DNA of 64,000 bases from an uncultured Christensenellaceae bacterium. GTDB lineage: Bacteria; Bacillota; Clostridia; Christensenellales; UBA3700. Within the stretch, counting starts at the first letter, position 1. The number at the start of each line of letters is the position of its first letter. The position numbers and the translations under genes are program-made. This document shows, piece after piece, positions 36,313 to 60,969 of this stretch. Location of the stretch: positions 64,318 through 128,317 of the forward strand of contig CALWKW010000002.1 in assembly GCA_944381365.1 (NCBI GenBank), given 5' to 3'. The notes beneath the pieces are model-generated. The model saw only the letters and a program-made list of their open reading frames with translations, had not been told where the DNA came from and searched no databases.

Positions 36313-37062
36313 TTATATCGTTCCTATTTGCCTCAAAACAAAATAATCCTGCGTAGTCAAAAATTCTGCATTCCTTACTGCGTCATCTACCGAAAATTCA
36401 CTAGGTTGTATGCCGTCTACCAATTCCCAATTTGTCTTTTTGAGAAAAACAGCTTCTTTGATACCGCTTTCTTTAAATGCCGAAGAATATAAATGCGTCA
36501 AACTTGCAGGAAAAACTACGCTTGTAATATTTTTACATCCTTGAAAAGCCGATTCTCCTATTTTTAAAAGGCTTTCGGGAAATACTATATCAGATATACT
36601 TGTACCTAAAAAAGCTCTGCTGTATATTATTTCCACGCCATAAGGTATATTTATTTTTGTGAGATCACTGCAACCCTGAAATGCACTAGTTCCTATATCG
36701 ACAATACTTTCAGGTAATACAACCTCTTTTAGACCGCTATAATAAAATGCATTATTATCTATTGATTTTACGCCATAAGGTATATTTATATAAGTGAGAT
36801 TTTTACACGAATGAAATGCACTTTTTCCGATAACTTCCAAAGTACTTGGAATTTGCACCTCACTGACACTGCTGAATGCAAAAGCAGATTCATTCAAAGT
36901 CGTAAGTCCCTCGGGAAGATTAATTTGAGAAAGATTTTCACATTCATAAAAAGCATATTCTTCTATTGTCTTTAAGTTTTCAGAAAACTTAATATTCTGA
37001 ATACTGCTATAAGCAAAGGCACCTTTGTTTAACCCTGTTAGAACACCATATAAGATTGCCAC
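36313..37062 (-). pseudogene. BspA-type leucine-rich-repeat protein, 5-prime truncated at the element junction
   Basis: About 23-aa LRR units recur (IPxGVxxIxxxAFxxCxxL). There is no signal peptide, the track start is a GTG, and an in-frame TAG lies immediately upstream, exactly where GC content rises. Confidence 0.6.
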
Positions 37063-39638: not shown

Positions 39639-39902
39639 ATGAAATCCGTAATCTGGGATCTCTACCACGGCAATATATGCGGCAAAGACATCAAAGTCCC
39701 CGTTAAAGACCGCAAAGAAGAGTTCGCCGTGTATGACAAATTAAAGGCTACCATCTCGGAAGAGAGCAACGCCCTCTTTGAGGAATTTCTCGAACTTTCC
39801 TCCGAAAGTCAAGACGCAGCCATGCTTATGACTTACAAACGCGGCGTAGCGTTTGGGCTGTTGCTTGCCTTCGAATCGTTTGAACAAGGAGATGAATTAT
39901 GA
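39639..39902 (+). CDS. hypothetical small protein, 87 aa
   Basis: AAGGAGG RBS. Its stop overlaps the next start (ATGA). Confidence 0.55.
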   Translation: MKSVIWDLYHGNICGKDIKVPVKDRKEEFAVYDKLKATISEESNALFEEFLELSSESQDAAMLMTYKRGVAFGLLLAFESFEQGDEL

Positions 39903-40888
39903 AACAACTGAATTTGGAAGCGAAAACCAAAGAACAGCAGCGTATCAAAGCCTACCTCGAAGAAAACGCCTCGGATATCCTTGTAGGGAAAATCAACAAC
40001 GGCGTTCTCATCAAGAAAGACGGAAGGATCCTGCTCAACCGCAAAACAATGGACGGCTTTATGTCCTTTGCGACCGAAGAAGCGAGAAAGCAAGCCGAAA
40101 AGGGCGCAAGATACGCTATGGTTGAAGACGATGTCGTATTCGGCTGGGCTGTCCACTATTTCCAAGAGGACAGCATCGAAGGCACGCTCTTTAACGAGGA
40201 CGGCTCCGAATATAAGACGCAGCCAAAACCGGCAGCAAAGGCGCCTGCGGTGAAAGCGCAACCCAAACCGCAGCCCAAGCCGCAGATGTCTATGTTCGAC
40301 CTTATGGGAGAAGACCTCGAAGGCAAGCCCGAAGACAACGAGGATACTATGCCGTCTGATGAAGAGATACAGGAGATCATGGCGGAAATAGCCGAGGAAG
40401 AAAAGGCGAAACAACAAAAGCCCACGACCTCTCCCGTATATCGGAAGTATCTTGAGGTGCAAGACAGGTATCCGCAAGCAATTATCGCCATGCGCTTGGG
40501 CGACTTCTATGAAGTGTTCGGCAAGAACGCAGAGGTACTTGCAAACGAACTTCCTCTTACCCTTACAGGACGGAACTGCGGACTTGAAAGCCGTGTGCCG
40601 ATGGTCGGATTTCCGTATCACACTGCGGAGATGTACTTCGGCAAAATCTTGAGCAACGGGCATACACTCGTCGTCATGGAAAACGACGATGAAATGCGCG
40701 AACTGCCTGCGAAACAGGAAGTAGACCTTGAAACAAGCGAGATACTCTCCGAAGAAGAGATGCGCGAGTTTGACGGCGACATCGAAGAGCCGAAAGACCT
40801 TGACGATGACATTGACGCTTCCGCCTTCGATAGAGACGCGCTCTGTAAGCTGGACGAAATGTTCGGCGACAAACTTACTTTGAGGTGA
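39899..40888 (+). CDS. fusion protein: PcfK/AcrIIA9-like N-terminal domain + acidic/Pro-Lys linker + MutS domain I (mismatch-binding domain) homolog
   Basis: The N-terminus (RIKAYLEENAS...VEDDVVFGWAVHYFQEDSIEG) matches the PcfK-like pattern as I remember it. The C-terminus (YRKYLEVQDRYPQAIIAMRLGDFYEVFGKNAEVLANELPLTLTGR...VPMVGFPYHTAEMYFGKILSNGHTLVVME) aligns by eye to the MutS N-terminus (QYLxxKxxxPxxxLxxRxGDFYExF...LTxR...IPMxGxPYH...Y). Confidence 0.65.
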   Translation: MKQLNLEAKTKEQQRIKAYLEENASDILVGKINNGVLIKKDGRILLNRKTMDGFMSFATEEARKQAEKGARYAMVEDDVVFGWAVHYFQEDSIEGTLFNEDGSEYKTQPKPAAKAPAVKAQPKPQPKPQMSMFDLMGEDLEGKPEDNEDTMPSDEEIQEIMAEIAEEEKAKQQKPTTSPVYRKYLEVQDRYPQAIIAMRLGDFYEVFGKNAEVLANELPLTLTGRNCGLESRVPMVGFPYHTAEMYFGKILSNGHTLVVMENDDEMRELPAKQEVDLETSEILSEEEMREFDGDIEEPKDLDDDIDASAFDRDALCKLDEMFGDKLTLR

Positions 40889-40892
40889 AATC

Positions 40893-42212
40893 ATGAAAGA
40901 AACAGACATCAGACCTATCCCGAAAAACATCCTGAAAAGGATACGGAAACTTGACGGCAAATACTATCCAAGCCCAGACGGTCATGTGCGCTGCTACGCC
41001 TACCTGACCACTTGGAAAAACGAGCTTGTGAAGGTAACCATCGCCGTAAAACACCGCTACAAAAAGTGGTACTGCAAACAGGTCGCAATTCACGGATTGG
41101 ATTCGGATAAGTGCTTTGTGAAAGACATGGAATATTGCTATTGCGCCGGCATGGGATTCCGCTTCGGCTGGTACGAAGAAGGCTTGCAGAAATACAAGCA
41201 ATGGTACGAACGCGGCTGGTGCTGGGCTTACGACAAATACTATGATCCCTTCGCGGAGATCGTAAATCCGCACTTCATAGACCGCTTGCCGGAGTTCAGA
41301 TATTCCGCGTATAAAATGTATCAGGGCTGCAATATTTTCAAGTATTTACGGCTCTACCGACAGTATCCGCAGCTCGAAATGCTGATGAAGCTCGGCTTTT
41401 CACGGATCGCGTTGAGCAAAACGATACTCAAACGCTGCGGCACGGACAAAGCCTTCTGCAAGTGGCTTATCGCAAACAAAGCGGCGCTTCGGGACAGGCA
41501 CTACTACATAGATGTCATCGTCCGAGCGTATAAAACCAAGAAGCCGCTCGAACAGCTTCAACACTACAAGGAAGCAAAACTTCGGCTGATCCATGACAGC
41601 GCGCTCGAACCGTTAAAGGAGCTGTTCAAAGGCAAGGAACTTGAACGGCTCTTTGATTATGTCGCGGAGAAGCGCACCAATCCGCATACCTATCTCGACT
41701 ATCTCAAAGCCTGCCAAAATCTCGGTTTGGATATGTCCGAAGAGAAGAACCGCTTCCCACACGACTTCAAACGCTGGCACGACATCCGCATAGACCAATA
41801 CGCCGCGAAAAAGGCGATGGAAGATGCGGAAAAGCGCAAAGAATTGTACGCGCAATTCGCCGCCGTTGCGGAGAAATATCTGTCCCTGCAACACGCGAAA
41901 CGAAGCGCGTTTATCTGCGTCATCGCAAAAAGTCCTGCTGACCTTATCCGTGAGGGTGAAGCGTTGCACCATTGCGTGGGACGGATGAACTACGACCAGC
42001 GTTTTGTCCGCGAAGAATCGCTCATCTTCTTCGTCCGAGCAAAGGAAAGCCCGGATATTCCGCTCGTGACGCTCGAATACTCGCCGCGCAGTCACAAAGT
42101 CCTGCAATGCTACGGCGAACACGACCACAAACCAAGCGAAGATGTACTGCACTACGTCAACAAAATATGGCTGCCTTATGCCAACAGACAAATAAGACAA
42201 ATTGCCGCATAG
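40893..42212 (+). CDS. PcfJ-like protein
   Basis: C-terminal LIREGEALHHCVGRMNYDQRFVREESLIFFVR...LVTLEY is the PcfJ signature as I recall it. It follows a PcfK-like gene, as on pCF10. Confidence 0.65.
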   Translation: MKETDIRPIPKNILKRIRKLDGKYYPSPDGHVRCYAYLTTWKNELVKVTIAVKHRYKKWYCKQVAIHGLDSDKCFVKDMEYCYCAGMGFRFGWYEEGLQKYKQWYERGWCWAYDKYYDPFAEIVNPHFIDRLPEFRYSAYKMYQGCNIFKYLRLYRQYPQLEMLMKLGFSRIALSKTILKRCGTDKAFCKWLIANKAALRDRHYYIDVIVRAYKTKKPLEQLQHYKEAKLRLIHDSALEPLKELFKGKELERLFDYVAEKRTNPHTYLDYLKACQNLGLDMSEEKNRFPHDFKRWHDIRIDQYAAKKAMEDAEKRKELYAQFAAVAEKYLSLQHAKRSAFICVIAKSPADLIREGEALHHCVGRMNYDQRFVREESLIFFVRAKESPDIPLVTLEYSPRSHKVLQCYGEHDHKPSEDVLHYVNKIWLPYANRQIRQIAA

Positions 42213-42224
42213 GAGGAAAAAGCA

Positions 42225-42509
42225 ATGGCAAACTATTTTAGAATTACAGCATATCACCCGACCGAAAATCTCTCGGTCATTATGGATTCAAACGGACTGT
42301 TTGAAAAACTCTGGCAATTCTCGTCCTTTATGGTATCCAAAGGCTTCAAAATCATTGAAGTCGGGGGCGAAGACAAATTCAACGAAGGCGATATGCCAAA
42401 AGTCGAACCTGACAATACTCATGTTATCGTTCGTGCTTGTAAAAGCGGTCTACCGGAAATTACAGGCAACTGCATTACGGTAGAAGGTAAATCATACTCC
42501 ATTATATAA
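42225..42509 (+). CDS. hypothetical protein, 94 aa (last gene of the + array)
   Basis: AGGAGG RBS, followed by a strong terminator. Confidence 0.55.
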   Translation: MANYFRITAYHPTENLSVIMDSNGLFEKLWQFSSFMVSKGFKIIEVGGEDKFNEGDMPKVEPDNTHVIVRACKSGLPEITGNCITVEGKSYSII

Positions 42510-42512
42510 AAT

Positions 42513-42537
42513 AAAAAGCCGCTTGTTGCGGCTTTTT
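42513..42537. terminator. bidirectional Rho-independent terminator at the backbone/cargo boundary
   Basis: AAAGCCGC-TTGTT-GCGGCTTT followed by a T-run (coordinates +/-2). Confidence 0.7.
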
Positions 42538-42556
42538 ATGGCTTTTATCTCTACGA

Positions 42557-45373
42557 TTATATATTAGTATATTTATTCTTTCTTGCCAAAAACGCTTCCT
42601 TCCCTCCTTCAAGTATATTGCAAATATGCTGTTGAATACCCCTTGAACCTAAGAAAGTATCTTCGTCTATAATTGTAATATTTTCAATCGCGCCAGATCT
42701 ATATTCAAACCTAAATGATTTATTGTTTGTTTGTGCATTACTGTCAATTTGCTGATTTGCTACAATAACTTCTTCAGCATCGCAACCCAGTACCAAATTT
42801 GCATTGTGTGTAACTAATATAATTTGTCTATCCTTTTTTCTATCCCTTATAAACGAAACCAAATCAGAAACTATAGATAAATTATCCAAATCGTCCTCAG
42901 GCTGATCTAATAATATCGGGCATTTAGATTCGTCGTGACTAATAAGTAACTTTAATAATACTAACGCCTTTTTCCCTGGTGACATATTTTCAATTTGATC
43001 ACCATCCATTTCAATAGTATATATAATATTGTCAAAATCACTTAAAAGTTCTTGCAAAGCGTGATTTTTATCATATTTGCTCAATAAAACTTTTTGAGTA
43101 TCATTTCCTAAAATTGCGTTAATATAATCTTTTTTACAATCCTCATCAAACTCAGATTCTAAAATAAATTGTTCATTATCTAAATCTCGGAATACGCCAT
43201 TATGAATACTTTTTAAGGCACTTTGTGTGAATATTTTAGTGATCGTTTCCTTAAACAAAGACCTACGACGACGTTTTATCGCAACAATTTTAAAGTTTTC
43301 ATCGGTATCTTTAAATTGAATACTCTTAAATTCACTTTCAAACAAATCATATTCCGCCTCGCGTGATGTTGTTAATGAAAGAATTGAATTTATTAAATCA
43401 TCTAATGCTTTTCGTAAATTTCTTAGAATCTCATATTCATCATTAATTTTTCTCAACTGTTCCTCTTCAGTCCGTAAATCTCCTTCAAGCTTTTTAATTT
43501 CTGCATTATTATCAATCATCGGTTTAAGCCCATTAATGATCTCCATAATCTTGGCATATTCCACTTGCAATGCCTCTAATCGATCAGATATAGAATCAAG
43601 AATTTTAGCTTTAGATTCTTGCCATGATTGTTTCGCTTCTTCAGAGATAACTTTAGCAACTTCGCTTACTTTCTTAGCAATCGCTGAATCCATTAAATCC
43701 TCAATATCAATTTTAACAAAAACATCTTCACTATTCTCGATCCGCTTCTTATCTGCAGTAAGCATTTGAATATTTTTTTCTATTAAAATTTTATCTTCAA
43801 CAGCTTTATCAAATCTAGCGATATCATCTGTAGATATGTTTAATGTTTTTGCTAAAGCTTCTTTTCTTTGACGCAGCAATTCTATATTATTTTTTACAGA
43901 TTCTATTCCTCCTAAATCCTTTATTAATAAAACTTGGGAATCAAATTCTTTCTTTTTATAAACCAATTCCAATATTTTTGAATCAATCTGCTTTTGTATA
44001 TCTATATTTTTTGCATCAAATGATCTACGCAGATCACAAAAAGCTTTATTTTGACAGATAATGTTTTCAATAATTTTATCTATTTCCGTCTTTTCCGCAC
44101 GGTCATCCATTAATTTGTTAAGATATGATTGTGCAATATATACAATTTTCTTATCGTCGCTTGAGCCATTATATGAAATAGCCCCATCTTTCCAATGAAC
44201 TTTAACAGGAAATTCTAAAGGCTTTTTTTTACCATTATAAACAGTCTCAAGACGTGAAGAAACTTCTGATGAATCAATAGCTCGCGCTATATTTTGAAGC
44301 AGTATAGATTTTCCTGTAGATTTTAATCCAATTATACAAGTTAAATTTTGATTAATTGGAAGCATTTCGTTGGAAAAACGATGAGGCACAACATTATCTT
44401 CTATAACAATGCCGTCTATAATCCTATAATTGTCTACACGATCTGCAGGGCAAAATTCCTGAATACGAACACGCTCAATTGGCTCGCAAAGAATTTGACG
44501 CAGCCCTTCCCAAGTAGGATCAGCTTTTATCCAACAATATCTTTTTGTAGATTTCCCTTGGTTATCAAGGGGTTCAAATATTGCATTATTAGTATGCGCA
44601 TCACATCCCCAAACACACGGCATAATTTTACTAGGTTTTTTATCTTTTTCTCCAGAAAAAAACTTAATATCCGATGGATTAGCAGATAATATCAAATCAG
44701 AAACCATATAAAGATCTCTTCTATATTCTAATAAATCTACTAAATCCTGGGAAGGACTACTTGGATTACCTACAGCTGAGGCCCCATCAGTACTTTTATT
44801 TGGCATTAGAACCAATACGTTATCCTTACATTCTGGATAATTATTAAATATTTTGATTATGTCATCAAAATTTATATGAAACTCTTCAACTCCTTTTTTA
44901 TATGCACGTTCATCATCTAGTCCAGGGACAAGTTCCTTCCCATAACGAATCAAGTCATCTTTACGCGCACAATAAGTACTTGTTGCAGACTTGTAGATTA
45001 AATTGCTTAAAATAATAGTATCTACTCTATCCACAAAAGAAGGATTGATTAAAAGATGTACATTCATTTTAACTCCATCTTTTAATGGCAAGCATCTCAA
45101 CTCAATATTAGGAAATATAAAATCTATATTTTGATCAAGAATACCATCGGCTTTTATCTTCTTGTAGTTTTCAATAGAAAAATAATCGGTAATGCCTACT
45201 GCTGCAATTTTTCTTTGAGGATCACTTCCATCACCGATGTAATTTTTTATATCTTGATAAAACCTTGCCCATTTTTCATCGTTATCACCATGAAACTGGT
45301 CATTTTTCTTAGTATTAGGTGTATGAAGATGAAAATCCCACCTTCGCCATTCTGAACCTCTTGAATAATCCAT
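42557..45373 (-). CDS. PHP-domain phosphoesterase fused to an ABC/SMC-like ATPase with a long coiled-coil insertion (Ppl/PplA-like defence protein)
   Basis: PHP motifs WDFHLHTP, ITDY, NIEL, NVHLL, GCDAHT. Walker A GLKSTGKS, about 370 aa of K/E/L-rich heptad-like sequence, signature-like MSPGKKAL, Walker B ILLDQPEDDLD, and H-loop VTHN. Confidence 0.8.
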   Translation of the reverse strand: MDYSRGSEWRRWDFHLHTPNTKKNDQFHGDNDEKWARFYQDIKNYIGDGSDPQRKIAAVGITDYFSIENYKKIKADGILDQNIDFIFPNIELRCLPLKDGVKMNVHLLINPSFVDRVDTIILSNLIYKSATSTYCARKDDLIRYGKELVPGLDDERAYKKGVEEFHINFDDIIKIFNNYPECKDNVLVLMPNKSTDGASAVGNPSSPSQDLVDLLEYRRDLYMVSDLILSANPSDIKFFSGEKDKKPSKIMPCVWGCDAHTNNAIFEPLDNQGKSTKRYCWIKADPTWEGLRQILCEPIERVRIQEFCPADRVDNYRIIDGIVIEDNVVPHRFSNEMLPINQNLTCIIGLKSTGKSILLQNIARAIDSSEVSSRLETVYNGKKKPLEFPVKVHWKDGAISYNGSSDDKKIVYIAQSYLNKLMDDRAEKTEIDKIIENIICQNKAFCDLRRSFDAKNIDIQKQIDSKILELVYKKKEFDSQVLLIKDLGGIESVKNNIELLRQRKEALAKTLNISTDDIARFDKAVEDKILIEKNIQMLTADKKRIENSEDVFVKIDIEDLMDSAIAKKVSEVAKVISEEAKQSWQESKAKILDSISDRLEALQVEYAKIMEIINGLKPMIDNNAEIKKLEGDLRTEEEQLRKINDEYEILRNLRKALDDLINSILSLTTSREAEYDLFESEFKSIQFKDTDENFKIVAIKRRRRSLFKETITKIFTQSALKSIHNGVFRDLDNEQFILESEFDEDCKKDYINAILGNDTQKVLLSKYDKNHALQELLSDFDNIIYTIEMDGDQIENMSPGKKALVLLKLLISHDESKCPILLDQPEDDLDNLSIVSDLVSFIRDRKKDRQIILVTHNANLVLGCDAEEVIVANQQIDSNAQTNNKSFRFEYRSGAIENITIIDEDTFLGSRGIQQHICNILEGGKEAFLARKNKYTNI

Positions 45374-45391
45374 ATATTCTCCTTATAAAAT

Positions 45392-46357
45392 TTAGCTCAA
45401 CAATAACTTTGCGACTTCTTTAGCAACATACCAAAACATAACAGGGGCAATTGCGTTGCCTAACGCACGATATTGGGCGCCTTCAGACCCAATGAGCACA
45501 AAAGATTCTGGGAAAGACTGGATACGAGCAACTTCACGAGGAGTAAAACGCCTAAATCTACCATTATCCAAAAGAACAGGATCTGTACTATTCAAAGAAA
45601 CCTTTGCTAAATGAGCTCCAACCGTATTACACGGTTGATTAATATCTTGCGCTCGTCCCTTATTCATCGTCTCTCGCTTTTTCATCATACCTGCTATGGC
45701 TTTATCGCTAAAGAAATATTTTTCAGGAACTGCATTCTCAATAACTTGAGATAAAGTTGATATGGGGAGATCTCCTTCTTTAGGTAAGCACTCAAAATCG
45801 AAAATCGTATTTAAGTCCTTCCTAATACCAACAATGATAACCCTTTCTCTCTTTTGCGGAACGCCAAAATCAACCGCATTCAACAACTTAAAAGAAACAT
45901 TATAACCACTGTCCTCAAACTCCTTAATTATCAGGGGGAAAGCACTTTTCCCATTAGCCGACAAAATTCCTTTAACATTCTCAGCAATAAAACACCGAGG
46001 CTTTTTATCCCTCAAAATCCTGCACATTTCAAAGAAAAGTTTGCCTCTATCATCTTTGACTCCTAACCGCTTTGGATTCTGTGCAACAATAGAAAAAGAT
46101 TGACACGGGAACCCACCGGTCAAAATATCAATTTCGGGAATTTCAGCTGAACCAACGGATCTAATATCTCTATTATCTGGTTTAATCCCAAAATTTCGCT
46201 CAAATATGGCGCAAGCATTTTCATCTATATCATTAGCATAGACTATCTCGATTGGATTCTCATCGTATTTTTTGCCTAAAAAAACAAAATCACCAAGCAA
46301 ACCAACATCTGTACCACCGCAACCACAAAACAATGACGCAACTTTTAACTTACCCAT
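45392..46357 (-). CDS. DNA (cytosine-5)-methyltransferase (second MTase of the cassette)
   Basis: Motif I LFCGCGG, IV GFPCQSFS, VI ENVKG, VIII QKRERV, X GNAIAP. Confidence 0.9.
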   Translation of the reverse strand: MGKLKVASLFCGCGGTDVGLLGDFVFLGKKYDENPIEIVYANDIDENACAIFERNFGIKPDNRDIRSVGSAEIPEIDILTGGFPCQSFSIVAQNPKRLGVKDDRGKLFFEMCRILRDKKPRCFIAENVKGILSANGKSAFPLIIKEFEDSGYNVSFKLLNAVDFGVPQKRERVIIVGIRKDLNTIFDFECLPKEGDLPISTLSQVIENAVPEKYFFSDKAIAGMMKKRETMNKGRAQDINQPCNTVGAHLAKVSLNSTDPVLLDNGRFRRFTPREVARIQSFPESFVLIGSEGAQYRALGNAIAPVMFWYVAKEVAKLLLS

Positions 46358-47754
46358 GTCAACAACTCCTCAAAATTACCCGCAGTCGCTATTTCAAATG
46401 TAATTTCTGCACCATCTTTAGGTATCATATTGATGATATCTTTTTTATATAATCCAACAGGGTCTTGAATTACATACAACTTTTTCTCTAATTTACTTAT
46501 CATCAAACGATATACAAAATACCTATCCTTCATTGATCCAGCCGTATTCCACTCATTCGGTGTCATATGAATTTTATTAAAATGTAATGGTTTGGAACTA
46601 ATGGTTGTCTTTACTTCTATATAACGCTTCCGTTCATCAAGTTCGACGGATTGAATATCATATCCGACAGCGAATTGTGTAGGGATTCTTTTAATTAAAT
46701 GAATCAAATCAATTCTTCCACCATTTTTAATACGTTGGCACTCATGCGAATGAACTAAACTCTCCCCGATATCTCCAATATCTTTGGTTTTAATATCTTC
46801 TTGATCTAATAACTGTGAATAAGTTTCATCTCTATTGCGTTGTAATTCTTCATATTCTTTTGTACTTGAAGAAATAAAAGCCAAGATATCTGTTGTAAAA
46901 TCAGTATGACTCATATCTCTGTTAACATAATTATACCAACCTACTGTACACGATTTTATATCTTCTAATGTAGCATACCTTCTTGAGATCATTAAATCAT
47001 ACGCATTAAACCATTCAGTTGAATTAATAAATTTCAAAATAGCTTCATTTTCTAACGTGTTAGTGTAATAAGCCTTACTATCATGGGACACTAACAAATT
47101 GGCAATTTCCATATAGTCGATAATATCACCAGCATATCTAATTATATCGCCGGTAGAATCATACTCTATAGAATCATCTCTATTTTGTTTAATACGATGC
47201 CATGTATCCAACGGAGTTTCAAGTCCAGTAGTACAGCGCAAATCATTAAATATACAATGGCAGACCTCCTCTTTCGATAAACCAATTCTTTTACCAGTTT
47301 CTTGTTCGGCCGCTTGAAATACTTTTAATATGTACTGTACTGGCTTGAAATGAATGCCAGCTTCGATTTGCTTTAACACCTCGTGAGGTTTAATATGCGC
47401 GCCCGGATATTGAAAAGAATATAAAAAAACCTTAAAGGCTTCAACCAAATCTTCTTTTTCTGCCAATTCAATTGCACGCTGTCCGGGAGAAGTCGTACCA
47501 TTATCGACAATGTAAAAACCGAAGAGTGAAGAAATTTCAGTTCTCCAGTTATTAATCGTTTTGATTTTCCTTATTGCATTTCCCGGATATCTACGAATAG
47601 CATCATTTAATTGTTCTGCAAAATCTTTCTCAGATTGTGCAGGTATTTGCGCAATTTCTGTTGCCATATAAATAAGAACATTTTCTATATCCCCCTTGAA
47701 ACGAGGACGTACATGATGTATTCTAAAATAATACTTTTCAGGCACCTTGTACAT
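46345..47754 (-). CDS. putative type II restriction endonuclease with C-terminal PD-(D/E)xK (DUF3883-like) domain
   Basis: C-terminus GDIGESLV...GYDIQSV...RYIEVKTT...EWN...YFVYRL fits a D...EVK nuclease core. The gene is sandwiched between two MTases and overlaps the downstream one by 13 nt. Confidence 0.6.
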   Translation of the reverse strand: MYKVPEKYYFRIHHVRPRFKGDIENVLIYMATEIAQIPAQSEKDFAEQLNDAIRRYPGNAIRKIKTINNWRTEISSLFGFYIVDNGTTSPGQRAIELAEKEDLVEAFKVFLYSFQYPGAHIKPHEVLKQIEAGIHFKPVQYILKVFQAAEQETGKRIGLSKEEVCHCIFNDLRCTTGLETPLDTWHRIKQNRDDSIEYDSTGDIIRYAGDIIDYMEIANLLVSHDSKAYYTNTLENEAILKFINSTEWFNAYDLMISRRYATLEDIKSCTVGWYNYVNRDMSHTDFTTDILAFISSSTKEYEELQRNRDETYSQLLDQEDIKTKDIGDIGESLVHSHECQRIKNGGRIDLIHLIKRIPTQFAVGYDIQSVELDERKRYIEVKTTISSKPLHFNKIHMTPNEWNTAGSMKDRYFVYRLMISKLEKKLYVIQDPVGLYKKDIINMIPKDGAEITFEIATAGNFEELLTWVS

Positions 47755-47759
47755 ATTTG

Positions 47760-48851
47760 TTACTCCTTTATATATTTTAACAACTGTTGCGCTATTGCTT
47801 GAGCCATAAGGGGTGGCACAGCATTACCTACTTGTCTAAATTGCTGAGTTTTATTTCCTAAGAAAATAAAATCATCTGGGAAAGATTGCAATCTTGCACA
47901 TTCCCTTACAGTTGGAACACGATTATATTTATAATGGAAATGATGCCTATGACCGGTGTCTATTGTAGGAGCTGGTTTGTTGCTATCAAATCTAGTCCAT
48001 GCAACATGAAAATTTCTACTACTTCTGTAAGCTTCGGGCAAATCTTTATAGTTGCCTCCATCAGGAACCATACTAATTATCTTTTGAACCTTTTCTGAAT
48101 GAACAGCCGCTATATGATTTTTCACTACACTTGAATGCTGTCTCATCAATTCCTGATATTGACAAGTACACTCCGTTGCATAACTTTGAGTTTCCTCACC
48201 TAAAGAATCAATCAAGGGAGGCAAATCACTTAATGCCATAGAACACGTTACTTTATCTTTCTGTGTGGGCGGAAATTCGAACTCGCCATTTTTAAGTCCA
48301 ACAAAAACCACTCTGCGTCTTGTTTGCGGAACACCATAATCTGCAGCACAAATAATTTGATATCTAACAGTATATCCCAAATCTGTAAGGCGCTTTATTA
48401 TACTATCTTTTATTTGACCGCCAAATAAAGAGACTAATCCCGGAACATTTTCAATAACAAACGCTTTCGGTTTAATTTCTTCTACCAACCTAATATAAGA
48501 TAAATATAATTTGTTTCTAGGGTCATCAAAACGCCGAGGTCCAGATAAAGACATTCCTTGACAAGGGGGACCGCCAATAATAACATCTATTGTTTTATTG
48601 CCTGTCGCTTTATCAATATCCTGCTTATGCAAAACAGTAATATCGCCACAAATTGATTTAGCGCCTTTATGATTAAGTTCAAATGTTTCTAATGCCTTTT
48701 TATCATTATCTATGCCAAGAACTATATTATACCCAGCACTTTCAAAACCATATGATAAACCGCCACAGCCACAAAATAGATCCAATACATTAATCATAAT
48801 TTTACTTTTCACCTTTCGCATTTTTTCGTCCATCAATAGGCTTTTCTGCAT
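47760..48851 (-). CDS. DNA (cytosine-5)-methyltransferase (first MTase of the cassette)
   Basis: Motif I LFCGCGG, IV GPPCQGMS, VI ENVPG, VIII QTRRRV, X GNAVPP. The true start is probably the ATG at 48797 (MINVLDLF) or 48821, just after or overlapping the HTH gene. Confidence 0.9.
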   Translation of the reverse strand: MQKSLLMDEKMRKVKSKIMINVLDLFCGCGGLSYGFESAGYNIVLGIDNDKKALETFELNHKGAKSICGDITVLHKQDIDKATGNKTIDVIIGGPPCQGMSLSGPRRFDDPRNKLYLSYIRLVEEIKPKAFVIENVPGLVSLFGGQIKDSIIKRLTDLGYTVRYQIICAADYGVPQTRRRVVFVGLKNGEFEFPPTQKDKVTCSMALSDLPPLIDSLGEETQSYATECTCQYQELMRQHSSVVKNHIAAVHSEKVQKIISMVPDGGNYKDLPEAYRSSRNFHVAWTRFDSNKPAPTIDTGHRHHFHYKYNRVPTVRECARLQSFPDDFIFLGNKTQQFRQVGNAVPPLMAQAIAQQLLKYIKE

Positions 48852-48987
48852 TAATCGGAATAGCCCAATTTTCCCCTAATTTGAACACACCGGGAATTCG
48901 ATTTTCCATACATAGGATTTGAACTCTTCGCTGCGAAATATTCCATTTTTTTGCAGCTTGGCTGGCTGTCATAAATTGATTTGTCAT
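48802..48987 (-). CDS. small helix-turn-helix DNA-binding protein (MerR/excisionase-like); candidate controller of the cassette
   Basis: MTASQAAKKWNISQRRVQILCMENRIPGVFKLGENWAIP, with an AAGGAG RBS. It is the first gene of the operon. Confidence 0.7.
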   Translation of the reverse strand: MTNQFMTASQAAKKWNISQRRVQILCMENRIPGVFKLGENWAIPINAEKPIDGRKNAKGEK

Positions 48988-49022
48988 AATAGCTCCTTAT
49001 ATTGTTCCACGGGACGAATGAT

Positions 49023-49051
49023 ATTATAGCATGAATAAAATAAATTTTCAA
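49023..49051 (-). promoter_or_regulatory. near-consensus sigma-A promoter driving the defence operon
   Basis: On the minus strand: TTGAAA, 17 nt, TATAAT, about 35 nt upstream of the HTH gene ATG. Confidence 0.55.
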
Positions 49052-49117
49052 GTCTATCAACTCAAAATCGGTAAAAAATCAAAAATGCTTTTACTCGCAT
49101 TTACTCATTTTGCAACC

Positions 49118-49183
49118 GTGGCGTGTGCTTGTCTTGATACGAGAGCGGCGCCGCTTCGCGCCGCCGCGACAAGCACACGCCAC
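49118..49183. other. nested inverted repeat carrying CTTGATA; candidate rolling-circle double-strand origin / nick site
   Basis: Perfect 16-bp arms, GTGGCGTGTGCTTGTC (49118-49133) and GACAAGCACACGCCAC (49168-49183). An inner 7-bp GC stem (GCGGCGC/GCGCCGC) sits in the loop. CTTGATA lies at 49133-49139 on the + strand, at the stem/loop junction. No T-run on either side. Confidence 0.5.
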
Positions 49184-49312
49184 TCGACCAAACCTGGTTG
49201 AAGGAGGAAAAGAAAAGTGATGACGGAAGCGGAGTCGCCCGCTAACCCGCTTGGGCGATCTTCCGCTTTCACCGTCACACTTCCCTTTCTTCTTTCCGTA
49301 TCCGTTCCATCT

Positions 49313-50350
49313 TCAATTACACTTTCGCATTTGGTCGATGACGCCTTTGCTGACTTGTCCCATGTAGCAGCCCTCATCCCAGCACGAGAAATCGTCGTAA
49401 AGGAGCAGCTTCTTTTCCTCACTCCCTATCGTACAGACGATGTCCTCGTCCATGATGTCCGAGATGAAAAACTGCGGCAGTCCCTTCGAGTAGACCATTT
49501 TCTCGCCGGTCTTTTCCATATACTTCGTGAGATACGCTATCGCCTCGCCGAGCATAGAGCGGTCGTCCACGGTCTTGAAGTCAGACCTGCCGAACCTTTC
49601 GTTGAAATAAGTGTTCTGGATCGTCGTCTGCACCTTCTTCTTGATCGGCGAATAGTCCTTGACCTCAACGAGTTCTCCGGGCATCGCTCCGTCCGGAATG
49701 TAGAACAGCCCGTGGAAGTGAAGCCGCTTCTTTTCGGGCGAGCGTTCCCACACCCCGACATACTTCCAGCCCTTGCGGTGGCACATCATTTTGAAGCATC
49801 CGCGTAGCTTCCTCATAAAGCTCTCTTCGGTATGCTTTGCCCCGTCGTAGGTGAAAGTGCAAAAGTAGTTGAAGTCCTGCAAATTCACCTTGCGAGTAAG
49901 CCTGATACGCCGACAAATCAGATTCCGCAATTTCCGCTCAAATTGCACTTCCACATACTTTATCGTGCTATCTTCATCCTTAAAGTACGGCTTCATGTTG
50001 CGAACGATAAACTTCTTCCTCGCGCTTCGGGACTGCCCTGCCGACTTTTGATACAGTTCCTCGAAGAGTTCCTTCCGCGTCATCGTCCTTGACCTCGGCT
50101 TCTTCTCAACCGTAGGTTCGGCCTCCTCCTCATTTTCCGTATGCGAAGACGGCGCATCGTCATTTTCAGGCGGTGCGCTTTCTTCTGCGTCTATGGTTAC
50201 TTCCTGTTCCGTGGTCTGTTCCTCTTCCTGCTCCGTCACCTCTATCTCTTCTTCCGGCGGACGGAAACGCCGTCTTGACGGTCTTGTCGTGTGCGGTATC
50301 GCTATGTAGTGACTGCCGTCAAAATACACTTTGCATTCACCATAAGACAT
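49313..50350 (-). CDS. rolling-circle replication initiator / HUH endonuclease (superfamily I Rep; could act as an IME relaxase)
   Basis: Motif 1 FCTFTYD, motif 2 RLHFHGLFY (HUH), motif 3 AIAYLTKYMEK (YxxxY pair, as in the phiX174 A protein). Acidic low-complexity N-terminal third. Confidence 0.8.
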   Translation of the reverse strand: MSYGECKVYFDGSHYIAIPHTTRPSRRRFRPPEEEIEVTEQEEEQTTEQEVTIDAEESAPPENDDAPSSHTENEEEAEPTVEKKPRSRTMTRKELFEELYQKSAGQSRSARKKFIVRNMKPYFKDEDSTIKYVEVQFERKLRNLICRRIRLTRKVNLQDFNYFCTFTYDGAKHTEESFMRKLRGCFKMMCHRKGWKYVGVWERSPEKKRLHFHGLFYIPDGAMPGELVEVKDYSPIKKKVQTTIQNTYFNERFGRSDFKTVDDRSMLGEAIAYLTKYMEKTGEKMVYSKGLPQFFISDIMDEDIVCTIGSEEKKLLLYDDFSCWDEGCYMGQVSKGVIDQMRKCN

Positions 50351-50391: not shown

Positions 50392-52521
50392 TCACGCAGA
50401 ACTGTCGCCGTCCGCGTCCCTGTACAGCGAATTGATGAAATAACTGTTCTGCATTTTGAGTTCCTCAACCGAAGCCTTTTCCGTAGCGTATTCCAAGTAG
50501 TCCGCAAGCCCCGTATAGCTGCGCCGCGCCATATCGTTGAAATAGTCCGAGAAACAGTCCGTGCTGAACCGCTGTGCATAAATCTTCGCGCTCATCAGGT
50601 AATACTTCTTATTCTCCGTCTTGCCGTCCATCGTGCCGCGCTCTTTCTCTATCTTCAAAACCGAGTAGCCGAAGCGATTGTAGATGCGTAAGTTTCGCCG
50701 CCAAAGCCATGCGACAACGCTTTTGAGGATATGCACCAGCAAGGTATTGTCCCCGCGCCTGAAGCGGAAGTCGTAGTACAGCGACAGGAAGCGGTTGAAC
50801 GCCCACTCCGAGAGCATTTCCTCTATCGTGTAGAATGGCAGAGCGAGCCGCATATCTCCGCACGAAGCGATGTTGATGATGTCCGCAAGGTCTCGCGCGT
50901 CCGCACCCCAAGACTCCGGTCTTTGCTCATCGGTGAATACCTTAATAAATGGGAAATTATCCACGGTCGCGCTATGTCTGCACATCTTCAGCCACGAATT
51001 GAAAAGGTCGTTCTTCTGGTTGGTGTCGTCCGAGCCTTTCTTTACTTCCTTGAGTTCCAGATTGTTGCCGCGCTCCTTGCCTATCTCCGTGATCCCCACG
51101 ACGCCGAACTCAAAACTGCCTGCCTTCGGGTTGTTTTCCAAGACCTTGCGGCCCAAGCGCAACACATCGAAATCAAGGATATGCGCGTGCCTGCTTTGAG
51201 GCCGTCTGCGCTTCGGGAAGAAGTCCGTGAGCCACATCGGGAAGTTGCCGTTGTCTGCCATCAGATTGTCCGTGCGGACGGAGTAATTCGCCACGATGAG
51301 GCTGCTTTCCAAGACATAGATGAAGTATGCCTGCGCATAGGTTTCCAGAACCTCGAACAATCGGCTTATTTTGAGCGAATCGTCAAAAGTCGTACCGTAA
51401 CGCGCGTAATCGTATCCGTAAAGTTGCGTTTGCGCGTTTCTGTGCCGAATGAACCTTGACCGTTTCAACGCCACCCAAGCCTTGACCGAGGCGAGGTTAT
51501 ACACCGTTCCGTGTTCCATACAATGCCGCAGTTCGTCCTCAAAGGCGATCCACGGGAAGTAGGGGAATTTCATGTCGTTCTGTTGCAGGATCTCCAATGC
51601 CTTCTGACGGAACATCACCTCTTGCGACAGCACCATGTCCGTGATGAGCGTCGTCTTTTTCTTGCCCATGCTTCCGCACGCCATAGACACGATAGGCAGC
51701 TCGTTTATGAAGCCGCAGTTCCTCGCCTCGAAGTGCCGCAGTCTGTTCTGCGCAATGTTCTTCCGCCAGCGATCAAACAACAGCCAGCAGACGAACGCGA
51801 CACACCACCACGGAAAGTGCTGGAAGATGACCTGCAAGTCGATGAACAGCTTGCACACCTGCACATAGAGATTAGTCACATCGAAGCTCAACACGAAGTA
51901 GAAGTAGTACGCGAGAAAGTCCATTACGATGCTTGCCGCGTTCAGGTGGAACGCCCACATCACCGCCCAAAGGATCCATACCGCGCGATGCTCCGTGAGA
52001 AAATCCCGATACGACAATGCAGCTCGTTTCAACGGCTGATACAGACATCGCGAAAATGATTTGAACACTTTCAGCGGTACGGTATCCTTGTTGTGTTTCG
52101 TGTTGCCGCTTTTATACAGCCGCCAGATGACCAGCCATAAGATGAGCAGGCACGGAAGCATGATTGCCACCACTTTCAACAGCACGAGCATCACATCTCC
52201 GACCTTAGACCAATAGCTTGCAAAGTTCTCTCCGTCTATGAGAAGTGCAAAGAACGATTTCGACTGCGAAGTAAAGCCCTCGAAGTCCGACGGGAGAAGG
52301 ATGCTCCAATCCATCACCGAAGAATACTCCGTAACGGACGGCACGATATTATGCTCTATCCCGAACAGCGTACAGAAATAGTACCCTACCGACAGTCCGA
52401 AGTCCTTGACGGCTTCTCCGAAACGCAGATATGAGTCCGAAAATACGAACAACGCAAGCAACGCAAATGCCGCCGTTATCAACACGGACAGGCAAATATT
52501 AAATACTCTGCGCCTGTTCAT
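50392..52521 (-). CDS. 709-aa polytopic membrane protein with C-terminal P-loop-like NTPase region
   Basis: About 6 hydrophobic helices in the first 270 aa. A deviant Walker A (ACGSMGKKKTT) sits at about aa 285, with a Walker-B-like FGVVGITEIG about 190 aa later. GGAGGTGG RBS. Confidence 0.6.
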   Translation of the reverse strand: MNRRRVFNICLSVLITAAFALLALFVFSDSYLRFGEAVKDFGLSVGYYFCTLFGIEHNIVPSVTEYSSVMDWSILLPSDFEGFTSQSKSFFALLIDGENFASYWSKVGDVMLVLLKVVAIMLPCLLILWLVIWRLYKSGNTKHNKDTVPLKVFKSFSRCLYQPLKRAALSYRDFLTEHRAVWILWAVMWAFHLNAASIVMDFLAYYFYFVLSFDVTNLYVQVCKLFIDLQVIFQHFPWWCVAFVCWLLFDRWRKNIAQNRLRHFEARNCGFINELPIVSMACGSMGKKKTTLITDMVLSQEVMFRQKALEILQQNDMKFPYFPWIAFEDELRHCMEHGTVYNLASVKAWVALKRSRFIRHRNAQTQLYGYDYARYGTTFDDSLKISRLFEVLETYAQAYFIYVLESSLIVANYSVRTDNLMADNGNFPMWLTDFFPKRRRPQSRHAHILDFDVLRLGRKVLENNPKAGSFEFGVVGITEIGKERGNNLELKEVKKGSDDTNQKNDLFNSWLKMCRHSATVDNFPFIKVFTDEQRPESWGADARDLADIINIASCGDMRLALPFYTIEEMLSEWAFNRFLSLYYDFRFRRGDNTLLVHILKSVVAWLWRRNLRIYNRFGYSVLKIEKERGTMDGKTENKKYYLMSAKIYAQRFSTDCFSDYFNDMARRSYTGLADYLEYATEKASVEELKMQNSYFINSLYRDADGDSSA

Positions 52522-60944: not shown

Positions 60945-60969
60945 AATTGCCCCTTAACTTGATACCACA

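What the first reader, a model, noticed from the sequence alone, without database searches (positions are those of the whole stretch)
42541..49117. Five-gene low-GC defence operon (HTH, M, R, M, PHP-ATPase) nested inside the GC-rich element next to its putative origin
The block has host-like AT-richness inside a ~50% GC backbone. It is bounded by a bidirectional terminator at 42.5 kb and by the Rep-proximal inverted repeat at 49.12 kb. It is driven by a near-consensus promoter (TTGAAA, 17 nt, TATAAT).

The genes are tightly coupled: the HTH and MTase-1 ORFs overlap, R follows MTase-1 after a 5-nt gap, R and MTase-2 overlap by 13 nt, and MTase-2 and the PHP-ATPase are separated by 18 nt. A restriction-modification unit co-transcribed with a Ppl-like effector looks like one co-regulated defence unit carried as cargo. 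It may be more than two systems that happen to sit side by side.
Basis: partly seen in the sequence, partly recalled or inferred. Interest (0 to 1): 0.7.

Follow-up and report, generated by a model that had tools for sequence, protein, structure and literature searches.

The report
Restriction-modification operon with appended TrlF nuclease-ATPase
A mobile element carries a known type of restriction-modification system (BpuJI-like) that shares a promoter and terminator with a separate, poorly studied nuclease-ATPase gene (TrlF family); the two usually occur apart, but relatives of this ATPase often sit inside restriction-modification operons of many types.

Summary
Five tightly packed minus-strand genes (42557-48987) have 31-39% GC inside a roughly 50% GC element. 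They run from a near-consensus promoter to a bidirectional terminator.

The block is a composite of two modules.
- **R-M module (HTH-M1-R-M2).** This is a BpuJI-family Type IIS system. It recurs in 80 other species-representative genomes. None of the 60 loci with enough downstream sequence has a close homolog of this ATPase; three have only distant family members there.
- **ATPase module.** The fifth gene belongs to the NCBIfam TrlF family (508 bits, cut-off 350). It is not Ppl (70 bits, cut-off 1000). It is a PHP phosphoesterase fused to an SMC/Rad50-like ATPase with a coiled coil. Its closest relatives (92% and 80% identity) have no R-M upstream, and a 64% relative follows an AlwI-type R-M.

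Across the family, however, at least 20 of 72 TrlF loci have R-M genes of Types I, II, IIG, III or ISP in the same gene run. Some TrlF genes sit between hsdS and hsdR, or between mod and res. Co-transcription here is likely; functional dependence is unproven.

Separately, a 14-nt motif containing CCCGT, the BpuJI target, accompanies the HTH gene in 41 of 47 loci that have it and 0 of 30 that lack it.

The parts
49023..49051 (-). Sigma-70-type promoter: TTGAAA, 17-nt spacer, TG-extended TATAAT
   Evidence: It matches 11 of 12 positions, the best of 36 promoter-like sites in 42000-49600. Equivalent promoters sit upstream of homologous HTH genes in other loci.
49005..49018 (-). Probable operator of the HTH protein: TTCGTCCCGTGGAA. 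It contains CCCGT, the BpuJI recognition sequence. It lies between the -10 element and the ribosome-binding site.
   Evidence: The strict motif TTCGYCCCGTNGAA occurs in 41 of 47 HTH-bearing loci and 0 of 30 HTH-lacking loci. It occurs nowhere else in 1.15 Mb of those loci. There is one exact copy in the window. Binding by the HTH protein is inferred, not shown.
48802..48987 (-). 61-aa HTH protein (weak HTH_17/HTH_59 matches), the likely autoregulator of the R-M unit
   Evidence: Pfam E about 1e-4. It has 727 homologs at 70-98% identity, named only 'DNA-binding protein'. It sits upstream of M1 in 47 of 80 loci, and also in L184-L189.
47760..48851 (-). M1, a C5 cytosine DNA methyltransferase. 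The true start may be 48821 or 48797.
   Evidence: PF00145 at 7.9e-82, TIGR00675 and PADLOC MTase_II. Gene callers on sister contigs chose 353- or 363-aa forms.
46345..47754 (-). R, a BpuJI-family Type IIS restriction endonuclease with an N-terminal recognition domain and a C-terminal NOV_C (archaeal Holliday-junction-resolvase-like) nuclease
   Evidence: BpuJI_N at 1.3e-105 and NOV_C at 1.1e-13. PADLOC REase_II at 2.5e-34. It matches the PDB 2VLA BpuJI N-domain at 5e-19.
45392..46357 (-). M2, the second C5 cytosine DNA methyltransferase (presumably modifying the other strand of an asymmetric site)
   Evidence: PF00145 at 1.9e-73. The M1-R-M2 order is the one described for BpuJI (PMC1874659).
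42557..45373 (-). TrlF-family protein of 938 aa: a PHP phosphoesterase fused to an SMC/Rad50-like ABC ATPase with a coiled coil
   Evidence: NF045780 at 5.5e-152, 508.6 bits, cut-off 350. AlphaFold model with mean pLDDT 78.6. Foldseek matches to JetC, MukB, RecN, Rad50, AriA and PHP enzymes.
44459..45349 (-). PHP domain of TrlF, about aa 9-305. It has H15-x-H17, E91, H106 and D258-x-H260.
   Evidence: These residues are invariant in alignments A2 and A4. pLDDT is about 90. Fold matches are 3o0f/3e0f, RNase AM (9etk, 7ug9) and the Pol III alpha PHP domain.
43328..44047 (-). Antiparallel coiled-coil arm of TrlF, about aa 443-682, inserted between the two ATPase lobes
   Evidence: The model shows long helices at 443-546 and 563-682. 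The topology is SMC/Rad50-like.
42511..42539 (.). Bidirectional intrinsic terminator shared by the cassette and the convergent 94-aa gene (42225-42509)
   Evidence: It has a 12-bp stem with T-runs on both strands.
49118..49183 (.). Perfect 16-nt inverted repeat with a 34-nt spacer, lying between the Rep gene and the cassette. It marks the GC-rich side of the junction.
   Evidence: Homology with L012, a different genomic context, starts at 49032. The cassette's upstream boundary therefore lies between 49032 and about 49117.

Best explanation
The block is a composite operon of two self-sufficient defence modules that share one promoter and one terminator.

**Module 1: a BpuJI-type Type IIS R-M unit (HTH-M1-R-M2).**
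- M1 and M2 are C5 methyltransferases that presumably protect the two strands of an asymmetric site.
- R binds that site with its N-terminal domain and cuts nearby with its C-terminal nuclease.
- The 61-aa HTH protein probably autoregulates the promoter through the conserved TTCGYCCCGTNGAA operator. The spacer of that operator is the BpuJI target, CCCGT.

**Module 2: a TrlF-family protein.**
- It is a PHP metal-dependent phosphoesterase fused to an SMC/Rad50-like ABC ATPase with a coiled coil. In effect it is a single-chain counterpart of SbcCD/Mre11-Rad50, or of the Wadjet and Lamassu sensor-nuclease pairs.
- It most likely uses ATP-driven DNA binding to direct its nuclease against foreign nucleic acid.
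- It works as an independent second layer that is simply co-expressed with the R-M.

**How the two came together.** The TrlF gene is a discrete recombining unit. In this element family it is present in every variant seen at this cargo slot, while the R-M unit in front of it is exchangeable.

**Basis of each step.**
- Shown: gene content, motifs, synteny and modularity.
- Inferred: the single transcript, HTH binding to the operator, CCCGT specificity, and the nuclease and defence activity of TrlF.
For: **Architecture and signals:**

**Module 1.**
- Domain assignments match the published BpuJI M1-R-M2 layout.
- The unit recurs in 80 species-level loci.
- The HTH gene and the operator motif co-occur: 41 of 47 against 0 of 30.

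**Module 2.**
- TrlF family score is above the cut-off.
- Invariant motifs: PHP residues H15, H17, E91, D258 and H260; Walker A G349-S356; Q415; signature S798/G800; Walker B D823-D827; H856.
- The model and fold matches show SMC-like ATPases plus PHP nucleases.

**Modularity.**
- DNA homology with L011 and L013 covers only the TrlF gene. In L011 it starts 21 nt before the ATG.
- L103 has 92%-identical TrlF, the same downstream backbone and no R-M.
- L013 has an AlwI-type R-M in front of TrlF in the same Rep...PcfJ slot.
- TrlF stands alone on pEh1A, the one example inspected among 341 plasmid records with a match, 185 of them Klebsiella.
- The whole five-gene block is shared with L012 in a different context. 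The DNA homology starts at the -10 element.

**A variable slot after M2.** Its occupants include Vsr, OLD-family nucleases, GmrSD, DUF6119, HNH, AIPR, a helicase and TrlF.
Against: - No transcript data exist. An internal promoter inside M2 cannot be excluded in AT-rich DNA.
- The recurrence of TrlF inside R-M operons suggests more than passive co-expression.
  - At least 20 of 72 loci have R-M genes in the same gene run as TrlF.
  - In some loci TrlF sits between hsdS and hsdR, or between mod and res.
- No experimental work on any TrlF-family protein was found in the searchable literature. Its defence role rests on fold, genomic context and distant similarity to Ppl.
Confidence: 0.63

Rival explanations
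1. TrlF is functionally coupled to restriction in one of two ways.
- **End processor:** it loads on DNA ends made by the restriction enzyme and degrades the cut DNA, making restriction irreversible.
- **Guard:** like PrrC in the EcoprrI locus or AriA in PARIS, it is triggered when a phage anti-restriction protein disables the R-M.

On either reading the five genes form one integrated system.
For: - 13 of 20 tightly coupled upstream partners of TrlF genes are R-M components of Types I, II, IIG, III and ISP.
- TrlF is embedded as hsdS-TrlF-hsdR (L137), mod-TrlF-res (L164/L165) and mod-TrlF-YhcG-res (L151).
- Where R-M genes are near TrlF, they are in the same gene run in 20 of 26 loci.
- The link to BpuJI-type R-M is polyphyletic: the branches share only 20-22% identity.
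- The SMC/Rad50-like and AriA-like ATPase fold, together with a PHP nuclease related to an exonuclease family, fits either end-sensing or a sensor role.
- A widespread clade places TrlF directly after SbcD-SbcC.
Against: - The nearest relatives work without any R-M next to them (L103, L011; the one inspected plasmid, pEh1A).
- The partner R-M type is not conserved along the TrlF tree. A specific protein-protein partnership is therefore unlikely.
- R-M systems are the commonest defence genes, and their operon ends and interiors are known docking sites for unrelated defence genes, for example DarTG2 (PMC12255303).
- OLD, GmrSD, AIPR and other genes occupy the same slot after M2.
- No control family was analysed for comparison.
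Confidence: 0.22
2. The juxtaposition is pure chance. Two unrelated systems landed side by side in the element's cargo hotspot. They are expressed separately, and the tight spacing has no regulatory meaning.
For: - Most BpuJI-type R-M units lack TrlF. None of the 60 evaluable loci has a close homolog, and the abundant versions L184-L189 lack it as well.
- 23 of 72 TrlF loci are monocistronic.
- The same slot in related elements holds TrlF alone, or TrlF with an AlwI-type R-M.
Against: - The 18-nt gap holds only a ribosome-binding site, leaving no room for a promoter. There is no terminator after M2.
- The five-gene block, from promoter to TrlF stop, is shared as a unit at about 75% DNA identity between different genomic contexts (L012, L022).
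- TrlF genes repeatedly overlap or abut R-M genes, with gaps from -14 to +30 nt.
Confidence: 0.1
3. TrlF is not an immune gene. It is a DNA-maintenance or repair factor of the mobile element, an SbcCD-like end or hairpin processor used in the element's rolling-circle replication or transfer.
For: - The fold is Rad50/SbcC-like with a phosphoesterase domain.
- The gene lies next to the Rep gene and the inverted repeat.
- One clade is linked to SbcCD.
Against: - TrlF has cargo-like low GC, unlike the element backbone.
- It occurs in many unrelated contexts without Rep.
- Its neighbours are overwhelmingly defence genes: R-M, Abi, OLD and AbiEii.
- It has a distant but significant relationship to the anti-phage protein Ppl.
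Confidence: 0.05

Closest known systems
BpuJI restriction-modification system of Bacillus pumilus (Type IIS, target 5'-CCCGT; PMC1874659; PDB 2VLA)
   Same: - The R protein has the BpuJI_N recognition domain and a C-terminal resolvase-like nuclease.
- R is flanked by two C5 methyltransferase genes in the order M1-R-M2.
   Different: - R shares only about 30% identity with the BpuJI N-domain (71.8 bits), so its specificity is not proven.
- This system has a leading 61-aa HTH gene and a conserved operator, neither of which is described in the BpuJI paper.
- It carries an extra ATPase gene at its 3' end.
Ppl, a single-gene anti-phage system combining PHP and ATPase domains (NCBIfam NF042955, PADLOC PDLC02208)
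   Same: - Same general architecture: an N-terminal PHP domain and a C-terminal ABC-type ATPase.
- Significant similarity in the C-terminal ATPase region.
   Different: - It scores far below the Ppl family cut-off (69.8 bits against 1000).
- The PADLOC profile aligns only to residues 491-931.
- The protein belongs instead to the sister TrlF family (NF045780).
Defence genes embedded in R-M operons: PrrC in EcoprrI (from my own knowledge) and DarTG2 in an EPEC Type I R-M controlled by RptR (PMC12255303)
   Same: - A second defence gene is transcribed with R-M genes.
- A small regulator encoded by the first gene represses the promoter.
- The embedding site behaves as a recombination hotspot.
   Different: - The passenger is a PHP-SMC-like ATPase, not an anticodon nuclease or a toxin-antitoxin pair.
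- The host system is Type IIS, and the passenger is appended after M2 rather than inserted between hsdS and hsdR.
- The regulator has an HTH_17-type domain and is unrelated to RptR.
SMC-like ATPase and nuclease defence machines: SbcCD/Mre11-Rad50, Wadjet JetABCD, Lamassu LmuACB and PARIS AriA-AriB
   Same: - An ABC/SMC head with a coiled coil, paired with a nuclease (fold matches; sequence matches).
   Different: - The nuclease is a PHP domain fused in the same chain.
- The coiled coil is short, about 100 residues per arm.
- No kleisin-like or partner subunits are encoded.
Controller (C) proteins of Type II R-M systems
   Same: - A small DNA-binding protein encoded first in the operon.
- A conserved site at the promoter.
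   Different: - The HTH matches HTH_17/HTH_59 weakly. No HTH_3 (Xre-type) match was reported at E up to 0.01.
- The motif is not a C-box, and it contains the putative R-M target itself.

Membership tests
BpuJI-type Type IIS R-M | Endonuclease with a BpuJI_N recognition domain and a C-terminal resolvase-like (NOV_C) nuclease | tested here: met
   PF11564 at 1.3e-105 over the full profile; PF13020 at 1.1e-13. PDB 2VLA at 5e-19.
BpuJI-type Type IIS R-M | R gene flanked by two C5 methyltransferase genes (M1-R-M2) | tested here: met
   The layout matches PMC1874659.
BpuJI-type Type IIS R-M | Recognition of 5'-CCCGT and methylation of both strands | not testable with these tools
   The only evidence is indirect: CCCGT is invariant in the conserved operator motif. 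CCCGT is not avoided in the window: host-left 38 sites observed against 19-29 expected.
TrlF family AAA-like ATPase (NCBIfam NF045780) | Full-length match above the curated cut-off | tested here: met
   508.6 bits against a cut-off of 350. Residues 5-935 align to profile positions 1-943 of 944.
TrlF family AAA-like ATPase (NCBIfam NF045780) | N-terminal PHP phosphoesterase with intact metal-binding motifs | tested here: met
   H15, H17, E91, H106, D258 and H260 are invariant. Fold matches to PHP enzymes. The Pfam PHP model itself did not reach E 0.01 on this protein, but it does hit the family member in L093.
TrlF family AAA-like ATPase (NCBIfam NF045780) | ABC/SMC-type ATPase motifs with a coiled-coil insertion | tested here: met
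   Walker A, Q-loop, signature motif, Walker B and H-loop are invariant. Coiled-coil helices span 443-682. Fold matches include SMC, Rad50 and JetC.
Ppl anti-phage protein | Full-length match to the Ppl model above its cut-off | tested here: not met
   NF042955 scores 69.8 bits against a cut-off of 1000, over residues 791-932 only. PADLOC Ppl scores 2.8e-15 over residues 491-931 only.
Ppl anti-phage protein | Protects cells from phage as a single gene | not testable with these tools
   This needs a phage challenge experiment.
Single operon (co-regulated unit) | One promoter, no internal terminator, and coupled or overlapping genes | tested here: met
   This rests on sequence signals only.
Single operon (co-regulated unit) | One transcript covering all five genes | not testable with these tools
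   This needs RNA-seq, 5' RACE or RT-PCR.
Obligate R-M plus ATPase system | The two parts co-occur in homologous loci | tested here: not met
   - None of 60 evaluable R-M loci has a close homolog of this ATPase. Three have distant family members.
- The closest ATPase relatives lack an R-M.
- In the family census, at least 20 of 72 TrlF loci are linked to an R-M.
C-protein-controlled Type II R-M | Xre-type (HTH_3) controller protein with a C-box operator | tested here: not met
   There are only weak HTH_17/HTH_59 matches, and the motif is different. The arrangement may work like a controller system, but it is not a member of that family.
PrrC/RloC-type R-M-linked guards | Anticodon-nuclease effector domain | tested here: not met
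   No such domain was found. The effector domain is PHP.
PrrC/RloC-type R-M-linked guards | Gene located inside or at the end of an R-M operon | tested here: met
   In the window the gene follows M2. Elsewhere it sits between hsdS and hsdR, or between mod and res.

The most novel reading that the evidence does not exclude
TrlF-family PHP-SMC-like ATPases are a general accessory arm of restriction-modification systems of every type. They act on the outcome of restriction, either by destroying the DNA ends it creates or by firing when anti-restriction proteins block it. In this cassette the whole two-layer unit is set by an HTH repressor whose operator carries the system's own methylation target, so that expression reads the host's methylation state.
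Probability: 0.2. Interest if true: 0.75.

Novelty: new variant of a known kind. Interest (0 to 1): 0.48.

Why it matters
- **A testable synergy question.** R-M operons that carry a second defence gene are known (PrrC, DarTG2), but no experimental study of the TrlF family turned up in the literature searched. This cassette is a compact natural construct of about 6.5 kb. Natural variants exist with no R-M or a different R-M in front of TrlF, and many related R-M units lack TrlF. That makes it a convenient system for asking whether an SMC-like nuclease and an R-M system cooperate.
- **A family-wide pattern.** TrlF genes occur inside Type I, II, IIG, III and ISP operons. If this holds against proper controls, it would make TrlF a candidate generic partner of restriction.
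- **A possible new regulator.** The HTH gene and the CCCGT-containing operator suggest a class of R-M regulator that has not, to my knowledge, been described and may sense methylation.
- **An annotation gap.** The PADLOC profiles label only the methyltransferase and endonuclease genes as R-M components. The fifth gene gets only a partial Ppl match, so automated tools may well miss it; the tools themselves were not run.

Tried and rejected
- **CCCGT avoidance** as a test of R-M specificity. The site is not depleted in host or element sequence, so the test is uninformative.
- **Profile search of PDB sequences for the PHP domain.** It returned only ATPase and coiled-coil matches. The PHP domain was shown by motifs and fold instead.
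- **Origin of the name TrlF.** Four literature searches found only an unrelated tropolone thioesterase of the same name. The namesake could not be traced.
- **Near-identical DNA in annotated collections.** The plasmid search found nothing, and the phage search found one irrelevant 343-bp match.
- **Terminator-like site at 45460-45446.** Rejected: it is the coding sequence of the conserved GNAIAP methyltransferase motif, and its stem and T-tail are weak.
- **Internal promoter-like sites** (for example 47989-47962). They are not above the shuffle expectation.
- **A tblastn-only screen for TrlF next to R-M loci**. It missed distant family members that the NCBIfam models then revealed, so the first zero count was corrected.
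- **RptR as the regulator.** Rejected: the HTH protein here is a different family (one search compared).

Full report
**1. Observation**

- HTH: 48802-48987, 61 aa.
- M1: 47760-48851. Alternative starts at 48821 and 48797 change a 50-nt overlap with the HTH gene into a 20-nt overlap or a 4-nt gap.
- R: 46345-47754, 5-nt gap after M1.
- M2: 45392-46357, 13-nt overlap with R.
- A 938-aa protein: 42557-45373, 18-nt gap after M2. The gap holds AAGGAG 5 nt before the ATG.

The signals also hold.
- The promoter TTGAAA-17-TATAAT with a TG extension (49051-49023) is the best of 36 promoter-like sites in the region.
- The bidirectional terminator (42511-42539) is real, as is the 16-nt perfect inverted repeat (49118-49133 and 49168-49183).
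- No credible internal terminator exists. Internal promoter-like sites do not exceed the shuffle expectation.
- Cassette genes have GC3 of 0.21-0.32, against 0.64-0.68 for the flanking Rep and PcfJ genes.
- The identical block is on all 10 contigs shown (22 were read) that carry the identical ATPase.

**2. What the genes are**

- M1 and M2 are C5 cytosine methyltransferases.
- R has the BpuJI_N recognition domain (1e-105) and a NOV_C nuclease domain. It matches the solved BpuJI N-domain.
- BpuJI recognises CCCGT. Its gene is flanked by two m5C methyltransferase genes (PMC1874659). That is the same M1-R-M2 order as here.
- The fifth protein passes the NCBIfam TrlF-family model: 508.6 bits against a cut-off of 350, aligned end to end.
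- It fails the Ppl model at 69.8 bits against a cut-off of 1000. The PADLOC Ppl profile aligns only to its C-terminal part, residues 491-931.
- Alignments show invariant PHP residues (H15, H17, E91, H106, D258, H260) and the full ABC-ATPase motif set.
- An AlphaFold model has mean pLDDT 78.6, and about 90 in the N-terminal domain.
  - It shows a PHP barrel, a split ATPase head and a coiled coil of about 100 residues per arm.
  - Foldseek matches JetC, MukB, RecN, Rad50, LmuB and AriA.
  - It also matches PHP phosphoesterases, including RNase AM and the Pol III alpha PHP domain.
- The protein is therefore a single-chain nuclease plus SMC-like ATPase. "PHP-ATPase" is right; "Ppl" is not.

**3. 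Does the ATPase travel with this R-M?**

*Starting from the R-M.*
- A scan of one genome per species found 80 loci with M1-R-M2, with R at 56-84% identity.
- Sixty of them have at least 3 kb downstream of M2. None has a close homolog of the ATPase.
- The gene just after M2 is highly variable:
  - Vsr in 12 loci and a third C5 methyltransferase in 4;
  - GmrSD, DUF6119, HNH, OLD-family nucleases, an STM2767 helicase, AIPR and SRAP;
  - non-defence genes in others.
- Distant TrlF-family proteins, at 20-22% identity to this one, sit directly after M2 in L069 and L093, and after a Vsr gene in L049.
- The two most widespread HTH homologs head HTH-M-R-M units without TrlF.

*Starting from the ATPase.*
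- The 92% homolog (L103) lies in the same kind of backbone, with the 94-aa gene, PcfJ and PcfK downstream. It has no R-M upstream.
- The 80% homolog (L011) has no R-M. It shares DNA homology with the window only from 21 nt before the ATG to the end of the gene.
- The 70-71% homologs (L012, L022) have the full BpuJI-type unit. L012 is in an unrelated context.
- The 64% homolog (L013) follows an AlwI-type R-M in the same Rep...PcfJ slot.
- The roughly 40% clades follow SbcD-SbcC or stand alone.
- 341 plasmid records, mostly Klebsiella, hold a match. In the one example inspected, pEh1A, the gene stands alone beside an Abi gene.
- A neighbour-joining tree shows that BpuJI-linked TrlF genes are polyphyletic, and that the partner type is scattered across the tree.

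**4. A family-level association**

- In 80 metagenome loci with TrlF relatives at 27-92% identity, the commonest families among the two upstream ORFs are R-M components: ResIII, N6_N4_Mtase, SWI2_SNF2, N6_Mtase, HSDR_N, Methylase_S, Eco57I and C5 methyltransferase.
- Of 20 tightly coupled upstream partners, 13 are R-M proteins of Types I, II, IIG, III and ISP.
- TrlF lies between hsdS and hsdR in L137, between mod and res in L164/L165, and between mod and a YhcG nuclease followed by res in L151.
- A seed-based census gives a lower bound. It includes a few duplicate loci.

| TrlF loci (72 evaluable) | Count |
|---|---|
| R-M genes in the same co-directional gene run | at least 20 |
| R-M genes nearby only | 6 |
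| Monocistronic | 23 |

- R-M operons are known docking sites for other defence genes (PMC12255303). I ran no control family. I therefore cannot say whether the link is specific to TrlF or generic to defence islands.

**5. Regulation**

- The motif TTCGYCCCGTNGAA (window 49005-49018) sits between the -10 element and the ribosome-binding site.
- It occurs in 41 of 47 HTH-bearing loci and 0 of 30 HTH-lacking loci. It occurs nowhere else in 1.15 Mb of those loci.
- In many loci it fills the spacer between the -35 and -10 elements.
- Its outer arms are palindromic and its core is CCCGT.
- This is strong comparative evidence for an HTH operator. It is suggestive evidence, with a chance of about 2% for a given pentamer, that the R-M target is built into its own control region.
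- In the window, the ATPase gene would be under the same control.

**6. Mechanism and verdict**

- Best reading (0.63): a composite operon of two autonomous modules, an HTH-controlled BpuJI-type R-M and an appended TrlF nuclease-ATPase. They share a promoter and a terminator and act as independent layers.
- Main rival (0.22): TrlF acts on the products of restriction or on its failure.
Co-transcription is likely. The Ppl label is imprecise.
- Novelty: a new variant of the known "defence gene riding in an R-M operon" arrangement.
- Family sizes: 1367 clusters at 50% identity for TrlF at E up to 1e-30, 2675 R homologs and 727 HTH homologs.

Noticed in passing
window 49005-49018 (minus strand); also upstream of the HTH genes in L023-L098: A conserved 14-nt motif, TTCGYCCCGTNGAA, contains the BpuJI target CCCGT. 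It co-occurs strictly with the 61-aa HTH gene: 41 of 47 loci with the gene against 0 of 30 without. It lies either in the -35/-10 spacer or just after the -10 element, and is inverted in L025-L028 and L098. It is probably an operator, possibly sensitive to methylation.
   Followed up: yes
window about 37000-59000: The GC-rich element has a Rep of the ORF2/G2P type (49313-50350), PcfJ and PcfK-like genes (40893-42212 and 39899-40888), and several large proteins with no Pfam match (709 aa at 50392-52521; 691 aa at 52652-54727). No close relative exists in the phage or plasmid collections. Its nature (conjugative element, or a replicating plasmid-like or phage-like element) is unresolved.
   Followed up: partly
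window about 49348; L004, L005 and L009: On three contigs with the identical cassette, homology to the window stops at 49348, in the last codons of Rep. A large serine recombinase gene replaces Rep upstream. This looks like a recombination breakpoint or an alternative backbone.
   Followed up: partly
L014-L018 (TrlF relative P0082): A very widespread operon, found in 230 blocks of the collection: a PLD-nuclease/helicase (RE_NgoFVII, ResIII, DUF3427), then SbcD, SbcC and TrlF, with a 12-nt gap before TrlF. A serine recombinase and a Fic gene lie nearby.
   Followed up: partly
L137:9895-13866: The HsdR gene that overlaps the embedded TrlF gene encodes 1324 aa. It carries extra DUF559 and GIY-YIG nuclease domains inserted between the HSDR_N domain and the helicase domain.
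   Followed up: no
P0145, P0164 and P0221: Some R homologs are 816-819 aa proteins whose precomputed Pfam hits combine a C5 methyltransferase domain with BpuJI_N and NOV_C. They look like natural M-R fusions of this system.
   Followed up: no
L155:9872-11149 and L156:9594-10865: A DUF2130 protein follows TrlF directly (gaps of 9 and 22 nt) in two unrelated loci. It may be a recurrent partner.
   Followed up: no
window 59055-62016 and 36313-37062: Low-GC genes flank the element. One side has a 629-aa protein with weak Peptidase_M78 and HTH_3 matches and a Fic-domain protein. The other side has a BspA-type LRR_5 protein.
   Followed up: no
L183 (plasmid pEh1A, NZ_KR822246.1): 341 plasmid records hold a TrlF-family match, 185 of them Klebsiella, and 234 of the 341 are typed as conjugative. 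On pEh1A, the one example inspected, the gene stands alone next to an Abi-family gene, with an ATP-binding protein and UvrD-helicase gene pair upstream.
   Followed up: partly
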